Source of the DNA: Alphaproteobacteria bacterium
GTDB taxonomy: Bacteria > Pseudomonadota > Alphaproteobacteria > Rs-D84
Length of the DNA stretch: 64,000 nucleotides
Direction of reading: 5' to 3'
Assembly (NCBI GenBank): GCA_046881825.1
Contig: JBKSMS010000010.1
Span: forward strand, 12,924-76,923
The translations under genes were made by a program, and so were the position numbers. Numbering within the stretch: the stretch's first letter is position 1; each line of letters starts with the position of its first letter. Shown here in pieces: positions 1-4,901 of the stretch. The notes beneath the pieces are model-generated. The model was not told the origin of the DNA and did not search any database. It saw only the letters and a program-made list of their open reading frames with translations.

Positions 1-377
1 CGATTCCAGCTAAAGCAGGTCATGGTAATAGATACAAAACAAATCCGCGTATTTCAAAAACTGCTCTTGCTTTGGCAGAATGTAAGTGTCAATGTCATCC
101 AGATGAACATATTACTTTCTTATCAAAATTAGGTCAGCAATATATGGAAGCACATCATCTTATACCTATGTGTGCACAGAAAGATTTTGATGTTAACTTG
201 GACAGAATAGAAAATATTGTATCTATTTGTCCAATATGCCATTCTGCAATTCATTTAGGTGCAGACTCTGTCAGATTAGAAATATTAAAAACATTGTATG
301 ATATGAAAATCGATGGTTTAAAAGAAGCAGGTCTAGATATAAGCTTTGGTGATTTATATACAAAATATTATAAATAG
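1..377 (+). CDS. HNH-family endonuclease, 5'-truncated at the window edge (the frame is open from nt 3). Probably the restriction endonuclease of the adjacent R-M system.
   Basis: Translation contains CxxC...HHLIP...N...CPICHSAIH, the ββα-metal HNH signature. No stop lies upstream within the window. It sits next to two DNA methyltransferase genes. Confidence 0.55.
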   Translation, partial: IPAKAGHGNRYKTNPRISKTALALAECKCQCHPDEHITFLSKLGQQYMEAHHLIPMCAQKDFDVNLDRIENIVSICPICHSAIHLGADSVRLEILKTLYDMKIDGLKEAGLDISFGDLYTKYYK

Positions 378-385
378 TTAATATT

Positions 386-1531
386 TTATATATTGTCCAA
401 TAAGTTCTTCATAATGTTTTCTACTAACTTTGGTGGAATACCTTCACCGACAACTTGACGTATCAGCTTTTCATCGGCCCAATCAGGAACATTCCAATCT
501 GTTGGGATAGAAAAAACGATAAATAATTCATACAATGTTAAACATCTTGGGTCTGAATATAAAATTTCCCCAGTTGCAGATTGATATTTTTTGCCAGGAT
601 GTACACAACACAAAGAAGATATAACACCATTATTTTGAGTGATAGTTCTGCTTGGTTTGTTCCAATCAAATCTTCTATATGTATTATAGTGTCCATTGAC
701 TCTGGTACCATCATCTTTTTTAGGATAAAATACTTCATTATCAAAAGCAGTTTTTCCACTTGGTGTATGCATCATAGCTATTACATGTTTTTTTGCATGT
801 TTGGGGGGGGTATGAAATTTGGATAATTTTTCTGCATTATGCTTTTTTGTTTCAAAATCCGGAAATAACTTGATTGTTTCTTCATAGCCTTCTTTAAGCA
901 TTGGGTCAACGGAAGGCAAGTTGTATAATACATCTTTTAATGTTTTTTCTGGTTTTGGTGCAGGCATTTCCCATTTATATTTCATATCTTTGCGTGTTAA
1001 TAAGAATATGTTTCTTTTACGCATTTGTGGTACATCATAATCTTTTGCACAAACAATATTTTGTTTTGCAAAATAGTAATCATTATCTAATTGTTGATGT
1101 ATGTATTCTGGAATCAATAATGTTTTATCCTCAACTTTAATTTTTGTTTTTAATAATTGTGGTACATTTTCTAAGAATATATATTTAGGTTTTATTGCTT
1201 TTATCACTTGTATTGCATAATAAATTAATTGATTGCGCTGGTCTAATGGGTCCATTTTACCGGCTAAACTCATGCCCTGACACGGCGGAGTTGCCAACAA
1301 AAGTTCCACATTAGATTTTTTGCATTCTGTGATGATTTTATTAATAATTTCTTCGTTAGTGATATCGCCTTCAATCATATTAACATCGGGATATAAATGT
1401 CTGTAAAATTTTACTCGAGTTGCGTCTATTTCGTTAGCAACTTTAACATCTATACCGATGTTTTTAAAATAACATTCTGCTACACCAACATTGGCAAATA
1501 AAGAAACCGCATTTATTTTTTTCTTAGACAT
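386..1531 (-). CDS. DNA (cytosine-5) methyltransferase, R-M system subunit, paralog A
   Basis: SLFANVGVAE (motif I variant), PPCQGMS (motif IV PCQ) and ENVPQLL (motif VI ENV). It is 381 aa and clearly paralogous to the next ORF. Confidence 0.85.
   Translation of the reverse strand: MSKKKINAVSLFANVGVAECYFKNIGIDVKVANEIDATRVKFYRHLYPDVNMIEGDITNEEIINKIITECKKSNVELLLATPPCQGMSLAGKMDPLDQRNQLIYYAIQVIKAIKPKYIFLENVPQLLKTKIKVEDKTLLIPEYIHQQLDNDYYFAKQNIVCAKDYDVPQMRKRNIFLLTRKDMKYKWEMPAPKPEKTLKDVLYNLPSVDPMLKEGYEETIKLFPDFETKKHNAEKLSKFHTPPKHAKKHVIAMMHTPSGKTAFDNEVFYPKKDDGTRVNGHYNTYRRFDWNKPSRTITQNNGVISSLCCVHPGKKYQSATGEILYSDPRCLTLYELFIVFSIPTDWNVPDWADEKLIRQVVGEGIPPKLVENIMKNLLDNI
795..802. repeat. G8/C8 homopolymeric tract inside the coding sequence of methyltransferase paralog A (encodes T-P-P), followed by an A7 run
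   Basis: gtttgggggggg is seen directly. A run of eight G is rare in an AT-rich genome. Confidence 0.9.
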
Positions 1532-1542
1532 ATTAACAACTT

Positions 1543-2688: not shown

Positions 2689-2827
2689 GTTTATTATCCT
2701 TATTTATCATGTTAACAACGGATTTGTGTAATAAAGTTTGCATGGGTTGTTTTTTCTTAATGGCTAACATTTTTAATGCCATATGCTCGCCTTCTGATAA
2801 TCGTATGCTGATTCTTATGTCTTTCAT
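2675..2827 (-). CDS. Small (about 50 aa) putative ribbon-helix-helix DNA-binding protein, overlapping the start of methyltransferase B. Possibly a controller of the R-M module.
   Basis: Manual translation MKDIRISIRLSEGEHMALKMLAIKKKQPMQTLL... gives a beta-strand plus helix pattern like the CopG/Arc family. It overlaps the downstream ATG by 14 nt. It is not in the ORF track because it is under 60 aa. Confidence 0.3.
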   Translation of the reverse strand: MKDIRISIRLSEGEHMALKMLAIKKKQPMQTLLHKSVVNMINKDNKHAKN

Positions 2828-3076
2828 AATTTTTCTTCCTTTCAGTATAGATTAAACACTAAATATAAAATTATGTCAATTAAAAAAACGCCAAAACGCC
2901 AAATTTTTATAATAAATTTATAAGTTTATTATAAAGTATTGATTTAACATCTTGCCCCTTTGGGCAGGATGTTTTTTTCACTATTTAGAAATTTTTTTAT
3001 CTGAAGTTTTTGACTCTTTCACATTCTAAACAACGTCGGTAGGTCAGCTATCGGCAAAAACAAAGGACTACTGCAA

Positions 3077-3283
3077 ATGACTAATTTTGAAACATTGCGA
3101 CAGGAAATTCAATCTTGGTATCCAGATTACCAATTTACAGATGTTGAATTAAATGAAGCAACACAAGATTTAATTAAGTTTTTTGCAGAAGGAGCACTAG
3201 AAATATATAGGCAAAAAAAAGCAGAAAATAAAAATAAAGGTCTGCAAAATGAAAAAAACACGGTAGAATCAAATGGAAAATAA
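3077..3283 (+). CDS. Hypothetical small protein immediately upstream of and overlapping the recombinase gene
   Basis: 68-aa ORF, translationally coupled to the recombinase. Confidence 0.3.
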   Translation: MTNFETLRQEIQSWYPDYQFTDVELNEATQDLIKFFAEGALEIYRQKKAENKNKGLQNEKNTVESNGK

Positions 3284-4901
3284 GAGGATAGAAATGAATC
3301 AGATAAATCAGACAATTAATTTTAGAAAAGTAAATCCATGCTATCAAGCTGTTGCTTTTGCACGTGTGTCTAGTCGTGAACAAGAACAGGGTGCATCACA
3401 TGATGCACAACTTGATGCGATTAGACGTTATTGTGATGCTCATAATCTGAATATTATAAAAGAAGTGAGATTGACCGAAAGTTCAACTAGGGGAGGACGT
3501 ATCGAATTTCATAAAATGTTAGAATTTGTTAAAAAGCAGAAAAAGAAAACAGCGATAGTTGTTCATTGTGTGGACAGATTTCAGCGCAGTTTTCATGAAT
3601 CTGTTGAAATAGACTCTTTATTAAAAAACGATTCAATAGAATTACATTTTTATAAAGAAGGTTTAATTTTAACAAAAACTAGTTCATCTGCTGATATTAT
3701 GCGCTGGGACATGGGGATAATGTCGGCAAAAATGTATGTTGGTTCTTTACGGGACAATGTAAATCGTAGTATGGAATATAATTGGTCGTTGGGAAAATGG
3801 CAGGGATTTGCACCAACAGGATATTTAAATACGCGTGATGCTGACAATAAAAAGACAGTTGTTATAGACCCAGAACGTGGACCTTTGGTTAAAAGGATGT
3901 TTGAGGAATATGCAACCGGACTATATTCTTTGCAAGACATGGCGGTCTGGACAAGAATTCATGGACTTACATCATTGCTTTCAAAAGAACCTTTGTCTCG
4001 TGCTGCAATACATAAAATGTTTCAAAATCCATTTTATTATGGTGTTATGCGTGTCAAAGGCAATTATATAAGACATATCTATACACCTTTAATAGATAAA
4101 GAATTATTTGATAAAGTTCAGGATATTTTAAATGGCAAAAATAAGATTCATGCAAAGACAGAATATGGAAGCATTGATTTTGCTATGCGTGGATTGTTTC
4201 ATTGTGGTGAATGTGGATGTGCTATTACATCTGAATTACATACAAAGAAAAGTGGCAAACAATATATTTATTTAAGATGTACGCATGGTCGTGGTAATTG
4301 CTGTCAAAAACCGGTACCAGAAAAAGAAATTATTGAACAAATTGAATCTGAATTAACAGAAAGCTTTAATTTTTCACCAAAAGCACTATCGTCATTAAAA
4401 GCAAGTGTTCGTGAATATATAAATAAAGAAGATGTTTTTAATCAGAGTCAACAAAAACAGCTGCAAACACGTCTATCAAATGCAAGAAATCGTCTAGATA
4501 ATGCAATTAACTTATTATTAGATGGTGTAATAACAAAGGATGTTTATGAAGCTAAAAAAGTGCAATTAGATAAAGAAATTGCAGAAATAGAATCAGAATT
4601 AGCTAAATATACTGATGATTATGATGAAATCGGCAAGATTCTTGAAAATATCGTTGAATTGGCCGGAAATGCTAAGTTTTTATTAAAGAGTTCAAAAGTT
4701 GAGCAAAAACGTGCATTTTTGAAACTTGTACTTTTGAACTCGACCATAACTGATAAAAAAGTCCGGATTTCTCTGAAAAAACCGTTCGATTTACTAAAAA
4801 AATCGAACGGTTGTAAACAGTGGTTGCGGGAGATGGATTTGAACCACCGACCTTCAGGTTATGAGCCTGACGAGCTACCGGGCTGCTCTATCCCGCGATA
4901 A
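3273..4901 (+). CDS. Large serine recombinase (resolvase/invertase N-terminal domain, recombinase domain and Zn-ribbon). The last 27 codons or so are read antisense through the tRNA-fMet gene.
   Basis: AFARVSSREQ (catalytic Ser), DRFQRS, the CGECGC...C..GRGNCC zinc ribbon and a C-terminal coiled coil. The stop at 4899-4901 falls exactly at the tRNA 5' end. Confidence 0.85.
   Translation: MENKRIEMNQINQTINFRKVNPCYQAVAFARVSSREQEQGASHDAQLDAIRRYCDAHNLNIIKEVRLTESSTRGGRIEFHKMLEFVKKQKKKTAIVVHCVDRFQRSFHESVEIDSLLKNDSIELHFYKEGLILTKTSSSADIMRWDMGIMSAKMYVGSLRDNVNRSMEYNWSLGKWQGFAPTGYLNTRDADNKKTVVIDPERGPLVKRMFEEYATGLYSLQDMAVWTRIHGLTSLLSKEPLSRAAIHKMFQNPFYYGVMRVKGNYIRHIYTPLIDKELFDKVQDILNGKNKIHAKTEYGSIDFAMRGLFHCGECGCAITSELHTKKSGKQYIYLRCTHGRGNCCQKPVPEKEIIEQIESELTESFNFSPKALSSLKASVREYINKEDVFNQSQQKQLQTRLSNARNRLDNAINLLLDGVITKDVYEAKKVQLDKEIAEIESELAKYTDDYDEIGKILENIVELAGNAKFLLKSSKVEQKRAFLKLVLLNSTITDKKVRISLKKPFDLLKKSNGCKQWLREMDLNHRPSGYEPDELPGCSIPR
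4821..4897 (-). tRNA. Initiator tRNA-fMet (anticodon CAT), with encoded CCA
   Basis: The reverse complement reads CGCGGGATAGAGCAGCCCGGTAGCTCGTCAGGCTCATAACCTGAAGGTCGGTGGTTCAAATCCATCTCCCGCAACCA. It has the C1·A72 mismatch and an ...CCCGCAACCA end, nearly collinear with E. coli tRNA-fMet. A cloverleaf can be drawn. Confidence 0.85.

What the first reader, a model, noticed from the sequence alone, without database searches (positions are those of the whole stretch)
1..4901. R-M module (HNH endonuclease plus twin C5-methyltransferases) and a large serine recombinase abutting tRNA-fMet, with the recombinase ORF reading antisense through the entire tRNA
Two tandem, clearly paralogous C5-methyltransferases next to an HNH nuclease suggest a restriction system with an asymmetric site. 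In such type IIS-like systems each methyltransferase modifies one strand, as in HgaI-type systems.

The module is linked to a large serine recombinase with a catalytic-Ser N-domain and a zinc ribbon. The recombinase stop codon coincides with the 5' end of an initiator tRNA-fMet gene on the opposite strand. So 77 nt of tRNA are translated in antisense as the last 26 or so residues of the recombinase.

The tRNA 3' end points into the element, consistent with an integrative element inserted at the tRNA and extending leftward beyond the window. tRNA targeting is usual for tyrosine integrases and much less usual for serine recombinases.
Basis: partly seen in the sequence, partly recalled or inferred. 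Interest (0 to 1): 0.6.

Follow-up and report, generated by a model that had tools for sequence, protein, structure and literature searches.

The report
Serine-integrase island at tRNA end
Window 1-4826 is the right end of an ~11.5-kb mobile island that a large serine integrase inserted into the last six bases of the initiator tRNA gene; the insertion cuts the integrase gene itself, so it reads on through the tRNA, and related integrases sit the same way at about 20 other tRNA genes in gut Alphaproteobacteria.

Summary
A 542-aa large serine recombinase (LSR) ORF (3273-4901, +) contains the whole initiator tRNA-Met gene (4821-4897, -). Two 53%-identical C5-methyltransferases and the C-terminal part of an HNH nuclease lie to its left.

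It is a mobile island. The same element is 97% identical in a genome whose flanking genes are only 65-71% identical. Complete copies (~11.5-12 kb) have an attL, and four metagenome contigs hold the predicted empty attB.

The repeat is only 6 bp, TGGTTG (CCA plus three bases). The attP core lies inside the LSR gene at its conserved Trp codon (TGG = CCA), so integration cuts off the last ~35 codons, which stay at the far end of the island. The read-through of the tRNA is a by-product.

In 62 of 82 related sequences the LSR enters a tRNA gene the same way (14 amino-acid identities). The element arm of attP carries the tRNA's T-loop hexamer 5 bp further out than in the tRNA, the known attP/attB geometry of serine integrases. 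A terminator-like hairpin for the tRNA lies inside the LSR coding sequence.

The restriction-modification cassette is conserved cargo. Its nuclease model has a type IIS-like recognition domain. Verdict: new variant of a known kind.

The parts
3..377 (+). C-terminal 124 residues of a 416-aa HNH restriction endonuclease. The ORF runs off the window start. Predicted type IIS-like: N-terminal recognition domain plus C-terminal McrA-like HNH domain.
   Evidence: 99% identical to L001 5834-7084. HNH domain matches McrA (6ghc), E 4.7e-5. AF2 model (pLDDT 80) has an N-terminal ~280 residues resembling Nt.BspD6I and the BpuJI recognition domain.
386..1531 (-). C5 DNA methyltransferase A (381 aa), convergent with the nuclease gene
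   Evidence: PF00145, E 2.6e-47; TIGR00675 dcm. The PPCQ, ENVP and QxRxR motifs are read in the translation.
1543..2688 (-). C5 DNA methyltransferase B (381 aa), paralogue of A
   Evidence: 53% identity over 377 aa; M.HhaI and M.HaeIII are the best solved relatives.
2675..2827 (-). 50-aa ORF at the head of the methyltransferase operon; candidate controller or ribbon-helix-helix regulator of the R-M cassette
   Evidence: weak DUF6290 match; a 31-52-aa ORF sits in the same position in the distant cassettes L102-L105; within the island family it occurs only with this cassette.
2946..2973 (+). Terminator-like hairpin (12 bp) with a T-run, at the boundary between the cargo and the recombination module
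   Evidence: the identity break with L002 is at window 2906.
3077..3283 (+). Conserved 68-aa ORF immediately upstream of the LSR start and overlapping it; candidate directionality factor or regulator (function inferred only)
   Evidence: found directly upstream of the LSR in more than 25 loci, down to about 38% identity. No Pfam or NCBIfam match.
3273..4901 (+). Large serine recombinase, integrated (clipped) form, 542 aa. Residues 1 to about 518 are encoded by the element. The last ~24 residues are encoded by the host tRNA gene read antisense.
   Evidence: RVS catalytic motif at S33, four invariant Cys, W517 nearly invariant..
4776..4812 (-). Terminator-like hairpin for the tRNA, inside the LSR coding sequence (codons KKPFD...SNG). 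The 13-bp stem is 4780-4792 / 4800-4812, followed on the minus strand by a U-run (4776-4781).
   Evidence: -19.1 kcal/mol, z -3.7; present in most tRNA-linked loci, with compensatory stem changes; absent from 9 of 9 control loci not next to a tRNA.
4821..4826 (.). Common core TGGTTG of attR (CCA, A73, A72, C71 of the tRNA); the crossover lies within it; right boundary of the island
   Evidence: attL and attR share only these 6 bp in L001, L090 and L093; the empty attB.
4821..4897 (-). Initiator tRNA-Met(CAT) gene, intact. All but its last <=6 bases are host DNA.
   Evidence: A7:U66 in the window versus G7:C66 in L001, a compensatory change.
4910..4937 (-). Perfect sigma-70 consensus promoter (TTGACA-16-TATAAT) for the tRNA, on the host side; transcription converges on the LSR gene
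   Evidence: 12 of 12 matches.

Best explanation
Window 1-4826 is the right-hand 4.8 kb of an ~11.5-kb integrative island. The island's large serine recombinase inserts it into the extreme 3' end of the initiator tRNA gene.

Site anatomy. attP is centred on TGGTTG, at codons W517-L518 of the recombinase gene itself. attB is the same six bases at the tRNA 3' end (CCA, the discriminator and two acceptor-stem bases), flanked on one side by the acceptor/T-arm and on the other by the ~10-nt spacer and the tRNA's own terminator. The strand exchange must lie within these six shared bases.

Consequences of integration. The tRNA stays intact. Its native terminator moves to the far (left) end of the island. 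A hairpin plus U-run inside the recombinase coding sequence takes up the terminator's position. The recombinase gene loses its last ~35 codons, which stay at the left end. It then reads on into host DNA, here through the whole tRNA because that frame of tRNA-fMet happens to lack a stop codon.

Shown here: the island's mobility, both ends, the empty site, the 6-bp core, the detached conserved tail, circular forms of sister elements with the gene intact, and the same layout at many tRNA genes.

Inferred: that the zinc-ribbon domain reads the T-loop hexamer; that the hairpin terminates tRNA transcription; that the 68-aa upstream ORF is a directionality factor; and that clipping the tail, together with convergent tRNA transcription, lowers integrase activity in the integrated state.

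The nuclease, the two methyltransferases and the small ORF form a self-contained, probably type IIS, restriction-modification cassette carried as exchangeable cargo.
For: Mobility. Window 1-4915 is 96.9% identical to L001, while the adjoining lpxK/lpxC and secretion genes are 65-71% identical. L002 and L093 share the recombination module but carry other cargo.

Ends. In L001, L090 and L093, attL is a host-specific terminator hairpin, about 10 nt of spacer, TGGTTG, then a common element sequence. attR is the LSR 3' end, TGGTTG, then the tRNA. The empty junction predicted from L093 occurs in 4 metagenome contigs, where the terminator abuts an intact tRNA-fMet.

Family. In 62 of 82 related sequences the LSR ORF enters a tRNA gene at CCA in frame. 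Twenty elements have both ends mapped: they are 3.5-12 kb, with a core of 6-9 bp that starts at TGG.

Site geometry. The cognate T-loop hexamer lies at nt 24-29 of P' and at nt 19-24 of the tRNA. It is an exact match in 15 of 20 elements and differs at one base in 4 more. It covaries: TCGGAC in tRNA-Thr and in its elements. A 5-bp shift is the published zinc-ribbon-domain motif geometry, attP 16-24 versus attB 11-19 (PMC3783163).

Split gene. The reconstructed attP-form tails align with the intact tails of homologues. A tail HMM gave 45 hits, all on the LSR strand; about 40 of them are detached from an LSR gene and lie to its left. pN/pS over tail codons 12-28 is 0.27-0.55. Two circular contigs carry the LSR gene intact (L097 and L096).

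Terminator. Cassette.
Against: The window does not contain the island's left end, so its completeness here rests on relatives that are 97% identical.

No experiment shows recombination, and the exact crossover dinucleotide is not determined. A dyad-symmetry scan of attP was inconclusive.

A strict perfect-stem terminator scan finds the hairpin in only 18 of 58 distinct junctions. RNAfold finds bulged versions in about two-thirds, by my reading. Some types (Pro, and some Thr) lack it.

The tail's conservation partly overlaps the P' DNA site. The pN/pS estimate uses pooled, non-independent pairs and uncorrected distances.

About half of the homologues with intact tails are not next to a tRNA, and several sit on long chromosomal contigs. 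Their att sites are unknown.
Confidence: 0.85

Rival explanations
1. The R-M genes and the recombinase are ancestral chromosomal genes that merely lie next to the tRNA; nothing here is mobile.
For: No long tRNA-fragment repeat was found in the window or within 10 kb in L001.
Against: The element is 97% identical where the flanks are 65-71% identical. attL was found once the 6-bp core was recognised. The empty site exists. Cargo differs among relatives.
Confidence: 0.02
2. The antisense-tRNA tail is a selected, functional part of the recombinase (true dual coding of tRNA and protein).
For: The ORF covers the whole tRNA and stops one base after it. The same is seen for tRNA-Trp in L079.
Against: The tail sequence differs with each target tRNA. 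It ends after 3-10 codons at tRNA-Thr and tRNA-Gln. The three window/L001 differences within the tRNA are all non-synonymous for the ORF, and two of them form a compensatory 7:66 tRNA pair. The conserved tail is the detached one at attL.
Confidence: 0.05
3. The island is a decayed remnant that can no longer move. The clipped recombinase is in effect a pseudogene.
For: Arrays of attL scars and disrupted LSR genes occur in some relatives (L082, L072, L041). The window's left end is unseen.
Against: The LSR keeps every invariant residue of the family. The detached tail ORF is intact in L001, L090 and L093. The element is near-identical in divergent hosts. An 11.5-kb contig equals the element from end to end (L090). 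Sister elements occur as circles.
Confidence: 0.1
4. The HNH protein is a modification-dependent (type IV, McrA-like) nuclease, and the two methyltransferases are unrelated orphan or anti-restriction enzymes, so this is not a type II R-M system.
For: The best solved sequence relative of the HNH domain is E. coli McrA.
Against: The nuclease, two methyltransferases and small ORF travel together in the same order and orientation in Bacilli and other distant contigs. The N-terminal ~280 residues of the model resemble type IIS recognition domains: Nt.BspD6I, BpuJI, and FokI weakly.
Confidence: 0.1

Closest known systems
DsiB, the ssrA-specific large serine recombinase of Dehalococcoides genomic islands (McMurdie et al. 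2011, PMC3146451)
   Same: A ~540-aa LSR at the end of a small island inserted at the 3' end of a stable-RNA gene. [quoted passage not shown]
   Different: DsiB targets tmRNA with a longer direct repeat of the ssrA 3' end, not tRNA genes with a 6-bp core at CCA. It has a partner small recombinase, DsiA. The paper does not describe a conserved detached tail, a T-loop motif in P', or a spread over many targets. Sequence relationship to DsiB was not tested here.
Phage serine integrases (LI/A118, Bxb1, phiC31)
   Same: Domain architecture, a short common core, and the ZD-motif shift of 5 bp between attP and attB half-sites.
   Different: Those integrases target protein-coding or intergenic sites and usually disrupt them. 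Their attP lies outside the int gene.
tRNA-targeting tyrosine integrases (P4/Islander-type islands)
   Same: Insertion at the tRNA 3' end, with the gene kept functional and the site reused, which leaves tandem arrays and scars.
   Different: An unrelated enzyme family. Those att sites share tens of bases of the tRNA, whereas here only 6-9 bp are shared. Papers in the library state that serine integrases are not known to target tRNA genes (PMC4383910).
SSV1-type archaeal integrases and mycobacteriophage integration-dependent immunity
   Same: attP lies inside a gene of the element, so integration changes that gene's product.
   Different: Those use tyrosine recombinases. SSV1 splits its int gene, and the mycobacteriophage systems clip a repressor. 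Here only the last ~35 codons of a serine recombinase are removed.
Type IIS restriction enzymes with modular recognition domains (BpuJI, Nt.BspD6I, FokI), and HNH type IIS enzymes such as MnlI (the last recalled from memory)
   Same: A predicted N-terminal recognition domain of the BpuJI/Nt.BspD6I fold joined to a separate nuclease domain, with two methyltransferases.
   Different: The nuclease domain is HNH (McrA-like) rather than PD-(D/E)XK. The recognition and cleavage sites are unknown. Fold similarity is moderate (TM 0.39 normalised by query, 0.54 by target).

Membership tests
Large serine recombinase / serine integrase | N-terminal resolvase-type catalytic domain with the catalytic serine | tested here: met
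   PF00239, E 1.2e-16. R31-V32-S33 is invariant in 38 family members.
Large serine recombinase / serine integrase | Recombinase domain plus zinc-ribbon domain with four Cys | tested here: met
   PF07508 and PF13408. C311, C314, C336 and C343 are invariant.
Large serine recombinase / serine integrase | Short common core between attP and attB (a few bp around a 2-bp crossover) | tested here: met
   The core is 6 bp (TGGTTG) in the fMet type and 6-9 bp in 20 mapped elements. The dinucleotide itself is not resolved.
Large serine recombinase / serine integrase | The outer (ZD) motif lies 5 bp nearer the centre in attB than in attP | tested here: met
   The T-loop hexamer is at nt 19-24 in B' and 24-29 in P' in 19 of 20 elements, allowing up to 1 mismatch. 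The rule is from PMC3783163. That the zinc-ribbon domain binds this motif is inferred.
Large serine recombinase / serine integrase | Catalyses attP x attB integration; excision needs a directionality factor | not testable with these tools
   Only indirect evidence: empty sites, occupied sites and circular forms.
tRNA-gene genomic island (Islander-type signature) | Intact tRNA gene at one end and a displaced tRNA fragment at the other, with an integrase gene inside | tested here: met
   Met, but the displaced fragment is only 6 nt. That is too short for fragment-based searches, and my own first searches missed it.
tRNA-gene genomic island (Islander-type signature) | Precise absence of the island in related genomes | tested here: met
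   The predicted attB is found in L098-L101, where the terminator abuts tRNA-fMet.
Type IIS restriction-modification system | Nuclease with separate recognition and cleavage domains | tested here: met
   The AF2 model (pLDDT 80.4) has a disordered linker at 247-273. The N-terminal part resembles Nt.BspD6I and the BpuJI recognition domain, and the C-terminal part resembles the McrA HNH domain. This is a prediction only.
Type IIS restriction-modification system | Two methyltransferase activities, one for each strand of an asymmetric site | tested here: inconclusive
   Two paralogous C5-methyltransferases are always present in the cassette. Strand or site specificity cannot be read from the sequence.
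Type IIS restriction-modification system | Asymmetric recognition sequence with cleavage at a fixed distance outside it | not testable with these tools
   Needs methylome data or enzyme assays.
DsiB-type ssrA island integrase | Targets the ssrA 3' end; co-encoded small recombinase DsiA | tested here: not met
   The target is a tRNA gene. There is no second recombinase in window 1-4901 or in L001. L093 does carry a 199-aa resolvase as cargo. The design is the same; membership is not claimed.

The most novel reading that the evidence does not exclude
This is a family of serine integrases built around two universal features of tRNA genes: a crossover inside the encoded CCA end, and zinc-ribbon recognition of the T-loop. 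That would let them be retargeted from one tRNA gene to another by changing only the ~10 bases between those features.

The integrase gene also acts as its own state sensor. The full-length enzyme, with a conserved ~35-residue tail, is made only from the excised circle. The integrated copy is clipped, faces the tRNA promoter head-on, and carries the tRNA's terminator inside its coding sequence. Integration would therefore switch the enzyme's activity or direction.
Probability: 0.3. Interest if true: 0.8.

Novelty: new variant of a known kind. Interest (0 to 1): 0.66.

Why it matters
Papers in the library assign tRNA-gene targeting to tyrosine integrases. One genomic-island database paper states that serine integrases are not known to do it. 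A systematic survey of serine-integrase sites never mentions tRNA.

Here a whole family of serine integrases in gut Alphaproteobacteria sits at about 20 different tRNA genes in the same way. The common core of only 6 bp would escape detection methods that look for tRNA fragments.

The layout offers a natural example of how serine-integrase specificity is re-aimed: a constant core, a constant outer motif and a variable middle. That is the problem faced when these enzymes are engineered for genome insertion.

It also gives a testable case of an integrase whose own gene is remodelled by the reaction it catalyses. For the host, the islands are small exchangeable carriers of defence genes.

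Tried and rejected
- Searches for a long repeat of the tRNA 3' portion found nothing (window; L001). The reason is that the core is only 6 bp.
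- My first set of 'distal repeats', with 13-20 nt of tRNA, turned out not to be the islands' own attL. In those loci the attL lies 130-850 nt further in, and a short unexplained insert lies between them. The crossover position I first inferred (tRNA positions 6-9 from the 3' end) was therefore wrong, and I replaced it with positions 1-6.
- An exact look-up of the window's recombinase found no record.
- Viral contigs held only 6 distant relatives, so there is no support for a phage.
- A dyad-symmetry scan of 13 attP sequences gave no consistent centre.
- Rfam found nothing in the short insert beyond terminator look-alikes.
- The consensus terminator scan missed the hairpin inside the recombinase gene. 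A strict perfect-stem scan of my own recovered it in only 18 of 58 junctions.
- Literature searches found no description of serine integrases that target tRNA genes. One preprint reports that 27 of 937 integrative elements found in Prochlorococcus carry a large serine recombinase, but what I read does not describe their att sites.

Full report
**1. What is in the window**

- A partial ORF at 3-377 (+) has a weak HNH match.
- Two 381-aa C5-methyltransferases lie at 386-1531 and 1543-2688 (-). They are 53% identical.
- A 50-aa ORF (2675-2827, -) heads the methyltransferase operon.
- A 68-aa ORF (3077-3283, +) overlaps the start of a 542-aa ORF (3273-4901, +). That ORF has Resolvase, Recombinase and zinc-ribbon domains, so it is a large serine recombinase (LSR).
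- ARAGORN and Rfam place a tRNA-Met(CAT) at 4821-4897 on the minus strand. Its C1:A72 mismatch marks it as an initiator.
- The LSR stop codon follows the tRNA 5' end by one base.

One correction: the HNH ORF has no stop upstream and runs off the window. It is the last 124 residues of a 416-aa protein that relatives carry whole.

**2. It is a mobile island, and the window holds only its right end**

The closest relative is L001, from an alphaproteobacterial metagenome-assembled genome (MAG). It is 96.9% identical to window 1-4915. The adjoining chromosomal genes (a DUF374 protein, lpxK, lpxC, secretion genes) are only 65-71% identical.

A second relative (L002) shares only the recombinase module, and a third (L093) carries different cargo.

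Walking left from L001 gave three sequences that include the left end:
- L001 itself, a complete copy.
- L090, an 11.5-kb contig that equals the element from end to end: it starts ~44 nt before attL and breaks off inside the tRNA.
- L093, a complete copy with different cargo, and its duplicate L094, which holds the left end only.

In each, the left end reads: a host-specific terminator hairpin, about 10 nt, TGGTTG, then a common element sequence (TGCTCGGTGTGCGGTTCTCGAAC…). The right end reads: …GTAAACAG, TGGTTG, CGGGAG…(tRNA). The two ends share only six bases.

From L093 I predicted the uninterrupted site (…TTTTTAGAAAATTCG-TGGTTG-CGGGAG…) and found it in four metagenome contigs. There the same terminator directly abuts an intact tRNA-fMet. 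By alignment with L001, the window's island would start about 6.6 kb left of window position 1 and be about 11.45 kb long.

**3. The overlap is a family trait, not a peculiarity of this locus**

A scan of one genome per species returned 80 loci, nearly all from gut Alphaproteobacteria MAGs, many labelled Candidatus Enterousia.
- In 62 of 82 sequences (81 related loci plus the window) the LSR ORF runs into a minus-strand tRNA gene. It always enters at the CCA end, and the complement TGG is always read as a nearly invariant Trp.
- The targets are tRNAs for Met(i), Gln, Pro, Thr, Tyr, Gly, Glu, Asn, Leu, Val, Asp, His, Trp and Arg, with 20 anticodons in all.
- Where the ORF ends depends only on where that frame of the tRNA has a stop: three codons in at tRNA-Thr, ten at tRNA-Gln, and the whole gene at tRNA-fMet and tRNA-Trp.
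- Between the window and L001, the three differences inside the tRNA all change the ORF's amino acids. Two of them form a compensatory 7:66 acceptor pair.

The 77 bases therefore evolve as a tRNA, not as protein.

**4. Anatomy of the sites**

Twenty elements could be mapped at both ends. They are 3.5-12 kb, and the common core is 6-9 bp and always starts at the T of TGG.

Because exchange must happen where attP and attB are identical, the crossover lies within CCA, the discriminator and the first two acceptor-stem bases. CCA is encoded at the 3' end of all the targeted genes here.

On the element arm (P'), a copy of the target's own T-loop hexamer sits at nt 24-29 counted from TGG. In the tRNA (B') the same hexamer sits at nt 19-24.
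- The match is exact in 15 of 20 elements and one base off in four more.
- It covaries: tRNA-Thr has the unusual TCGGAC, and so do its elements.
- A 5-bp outward shift of the outer motif in attP relative to attB is the geometry established for the zinc-ribbon domain of the Listeria integrase: half-site positions 16-24 versus 11-19 (PMC3783163).
- With those numbers the centre falls at about positions 4-6, inside the six-base core.

That the zinc-ribbon domain reads the T-loop is my inference. A symmetry scan did not fix the central dinucleotide.

**5. The recombinase gene is cut by integration**

Joining the LSR gene to the sequence that follows TGGTTG at attL gives the predicted circular-form C-terminus: WLCSVCGSRTDYYMDLIAIGHEIQLFKDKLGLPNLH*.

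This tail aligns with the reconstructed tails of the Thr, Gln, Pro and Asn types. It also aligns with the uninterrupted tails of about half of the database homologues. The shared pattern is W…xRTxxYxD[FL]xxLxxxIxxFK.
- A profile of the tails gave 45 hits in six-frame translations of all loci. All were on the LSR strand. About 40 start with the TGG of an attL-type junction and lie to the left of the LSR gene, detached from it.
- Beyond the ~30 bp expected for the DNA site, the tails show pN/pS of 0.27-0.55. This is a rough, pooled estimate.
- Two metagenome contigs appear to be circular elements with the gene uninterrupted. L097 (7.07 kb) has a 30-nt terminal overlap and a Gln-type core. L096 (8.57 kb) has a 20-nt overlap before a poly-G artefact, an ORF continuous across the join, and a Thr-type core.

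So the full-length enzyme can be encoded only by the excised form. Whether the tail matters for activity or direction is untested.

**6. The tRNA's transcription signals**

On the host side, a perfect TTGACA-16-TATAAT promoter precedes the tRNA. On the island side, 8 nt after CCA (the hairpin starts at the ninth base), a 13-bp hairpin and U-run lie inside the codons for the conserved KKPFD…SNG motif (-19.1 kcal/mol, z -3.7).

Native tRNA terminators sit at a similar distance, both at the displaced left ends and at unoccupied tRNA genes such as the window's tRNA-Tyr.

Most tRNA-linked family members have such a hairpin, with different, compensating stem sequences. By my reading that is about two-thirds; a strict scan finds 18 of 58. 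None of nine homologues that are not next to a tRNA has it.

I infer that it replaces the terminator the island displaces and limits antisense transcription into the LSR gene. It may also be part of the P-arm binding site.

**7. The restriction-modification cassette**

The 416-aa nuclease has full-length homologues at 56-70% identity in Clostridia, Bacilli and other MAGs.

In the two distant contexts I examined, it is followed by two convergent ~380-aa C5-methyltransferases and a small (31-52-aa) ORF, just as here. In one context a Vsr gene is adjacent.

An AlphaFold model (pLDDT 80) has two parts joined by a disordered linker.
- The N-terminal ~280 residues match Nt.BspD6I and the BpuJI recognition domain, and FokI weakly. 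All of these are type IIS enzymes.
- The C-terminal part matches the McrA HNH domain.

The recognition site and the strand assignment of the two methyltransferases remain unknown.

Within the island family the cassette is exchangeable cargo. Other members carry an Mrr-like nuclease, an AAA_21/RloB pair, an MFS transporter with acetyltransferases, or other methyltransferases.

The recurring backbone is the LSR, the 68-aa ORF, a weak rolling-circle Rep-like protein, a DUF3768 protein and often a 580-aa methyltransferase. No capsid or conjugation genes were seen, and viral collections hold almost no relatives. A small integrative, plasmid-like or mobilisable element is therefore the likeliest kind. 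How it moves between cells is unknown.

**8. Comparison with what is known**

The enzyme meets the tested criteria for a large serine recombinase.

The nearest described design is DsiB of the Dehalococcoides tmRNA islands. Its authors noticed that the gene's 3' end always overlaps the att site, and they wondered whether it is complete only on the circle.

What differs here, and what I did not find described:
- tRNA genes as targets, and many of them.
- A six-base core at CCA.
- The T-loop copy in P' with the 5-bp shift.
- A conserved detached tail.
- A built-in terminator.

A genomic-island database paper states that serine integrases are not known to target tRNA genes. Mycobacterial and streptococcal surveys find them in protein genes or intergenic sites. 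A systematic serine-integrase survey does not mention tRNA. One preprint counts 27 elements with a large serine recombinase among 937 integrative elements found in Prochlorococcus, without site detail in what I read.

I rate this a new variant of a known kind.

**9. Caveats**

Everything about mechanism is inferred from sequence comparison. The elements within a tRNA type are related, so the 20 mapped elements amount to roughly five or six independent cases. The window itself lacks the left end. The homologues with intact tails that lie on long chromosomal contigs are unexplained.

Noticed in passing
L016 5573-5757; L046 1236-1417; L043 2954-3134; L055 3508-3680; L027 1234-1424; L082 11177-11350: Between a longer displaced tRNA fragment (13-20 nt) and the island's own attL lies a 130-200-nt insert. 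It has its own terminator hairpin at the right end and a shared motif (…GGGGCATTC.T.AC…). It could be a miniature non-autonomous element or the scar of an older insertion. It has no Rfam match.
   Followed up: partly
L072 585, 1312, 1936, 2750; L041 45, 799, 2266; L035 2215, 3317; L040 824, 2903: Arrays of two to four detached tail fragments (attL-type junctions) lie in a row, 600-2000 nt apart, left of one recombinase. They look like scars of repeated insertion and decay at one tRNA gene.
   Followed up: partly
L057 171-1637 and 6743-8218: Two related recombinase genes lie in tandem at one tRNA-Leu(CAG). The left one abuts a ~20-nt tRNA fragment instead of the gene.
   Followed up: no
window 24685-24758 (tRNA-Thr GGT), 57428-57513 (tRNA-Tyr), 57536-57610 (tRNA-Gly TCC): These tRNA genes are the targets of sister elements in other genomes (e.g. 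L012, L024, L035) but are unoccupied here. No tail fragments or recombinase remnants were found anywhere else in the window. The tRNA-Tyr has its native terminator about 10 nt after CCA.
   Followed up: partly
L001 3117-3142 and 9679-9704 (the second corresponds to window ~2974-2999): A 26-nt direct repeat (92% identical, TTTTTTTCACTATTTAGAAATTTTTT) precedes both the Rep-like gene and the 68-aa-ORF/recombinase operon. It may be a shared operator or promoter element.
   Followed up: no
L014, L015, L025, L048, L050-L052, L054, L078; proteins P0039-P0100: A large clade of homologues (tail WFDFDKSD…VQMYK and similar) has an uninterrupted gene, no adjacent tRNA, no T-loop-like motif after the Trp codon and no hairpin. 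Some sit on contigs of 100-430 kb. Their attachment sites are unknown.
   Followed up: partly
L095 2000-3637 and downstream: The same intact Thr-type recombinase as in the circular contig L096 is here followed by O-antigen-type glycosyltransferase genes on a 12.8-kb contig. I did not determine whether this is larger cargo or a chromosomal context.
   Followed up: no
L104/L105 3100-11002: The same nuclease + two methyltransferases cassette sits beside Vsr, an SduA_C-domain protein and a tyrosine integrase, on a contig that also encodes ribosomal protein S19e (an archaeal/eukaryotic type). The cassette may cross domain boundaries.
   Followed up: no
L016 9659-9973; L083 972-1286: In Gln-type elements the ORF just upstream of the recombinase is a TRL-like protein (PF13146), not the 68-aa ORF found in the window's clade.
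   Followed up: no
L002, L010, L045, L090 and other loci ending within or at the tRNA: Many assemblies break exactly at the recombinase/tRNA junction. This is what mixed occupied and empty sites, or the same element in several hosts, would produce in a metagenome.
   Followed up: no
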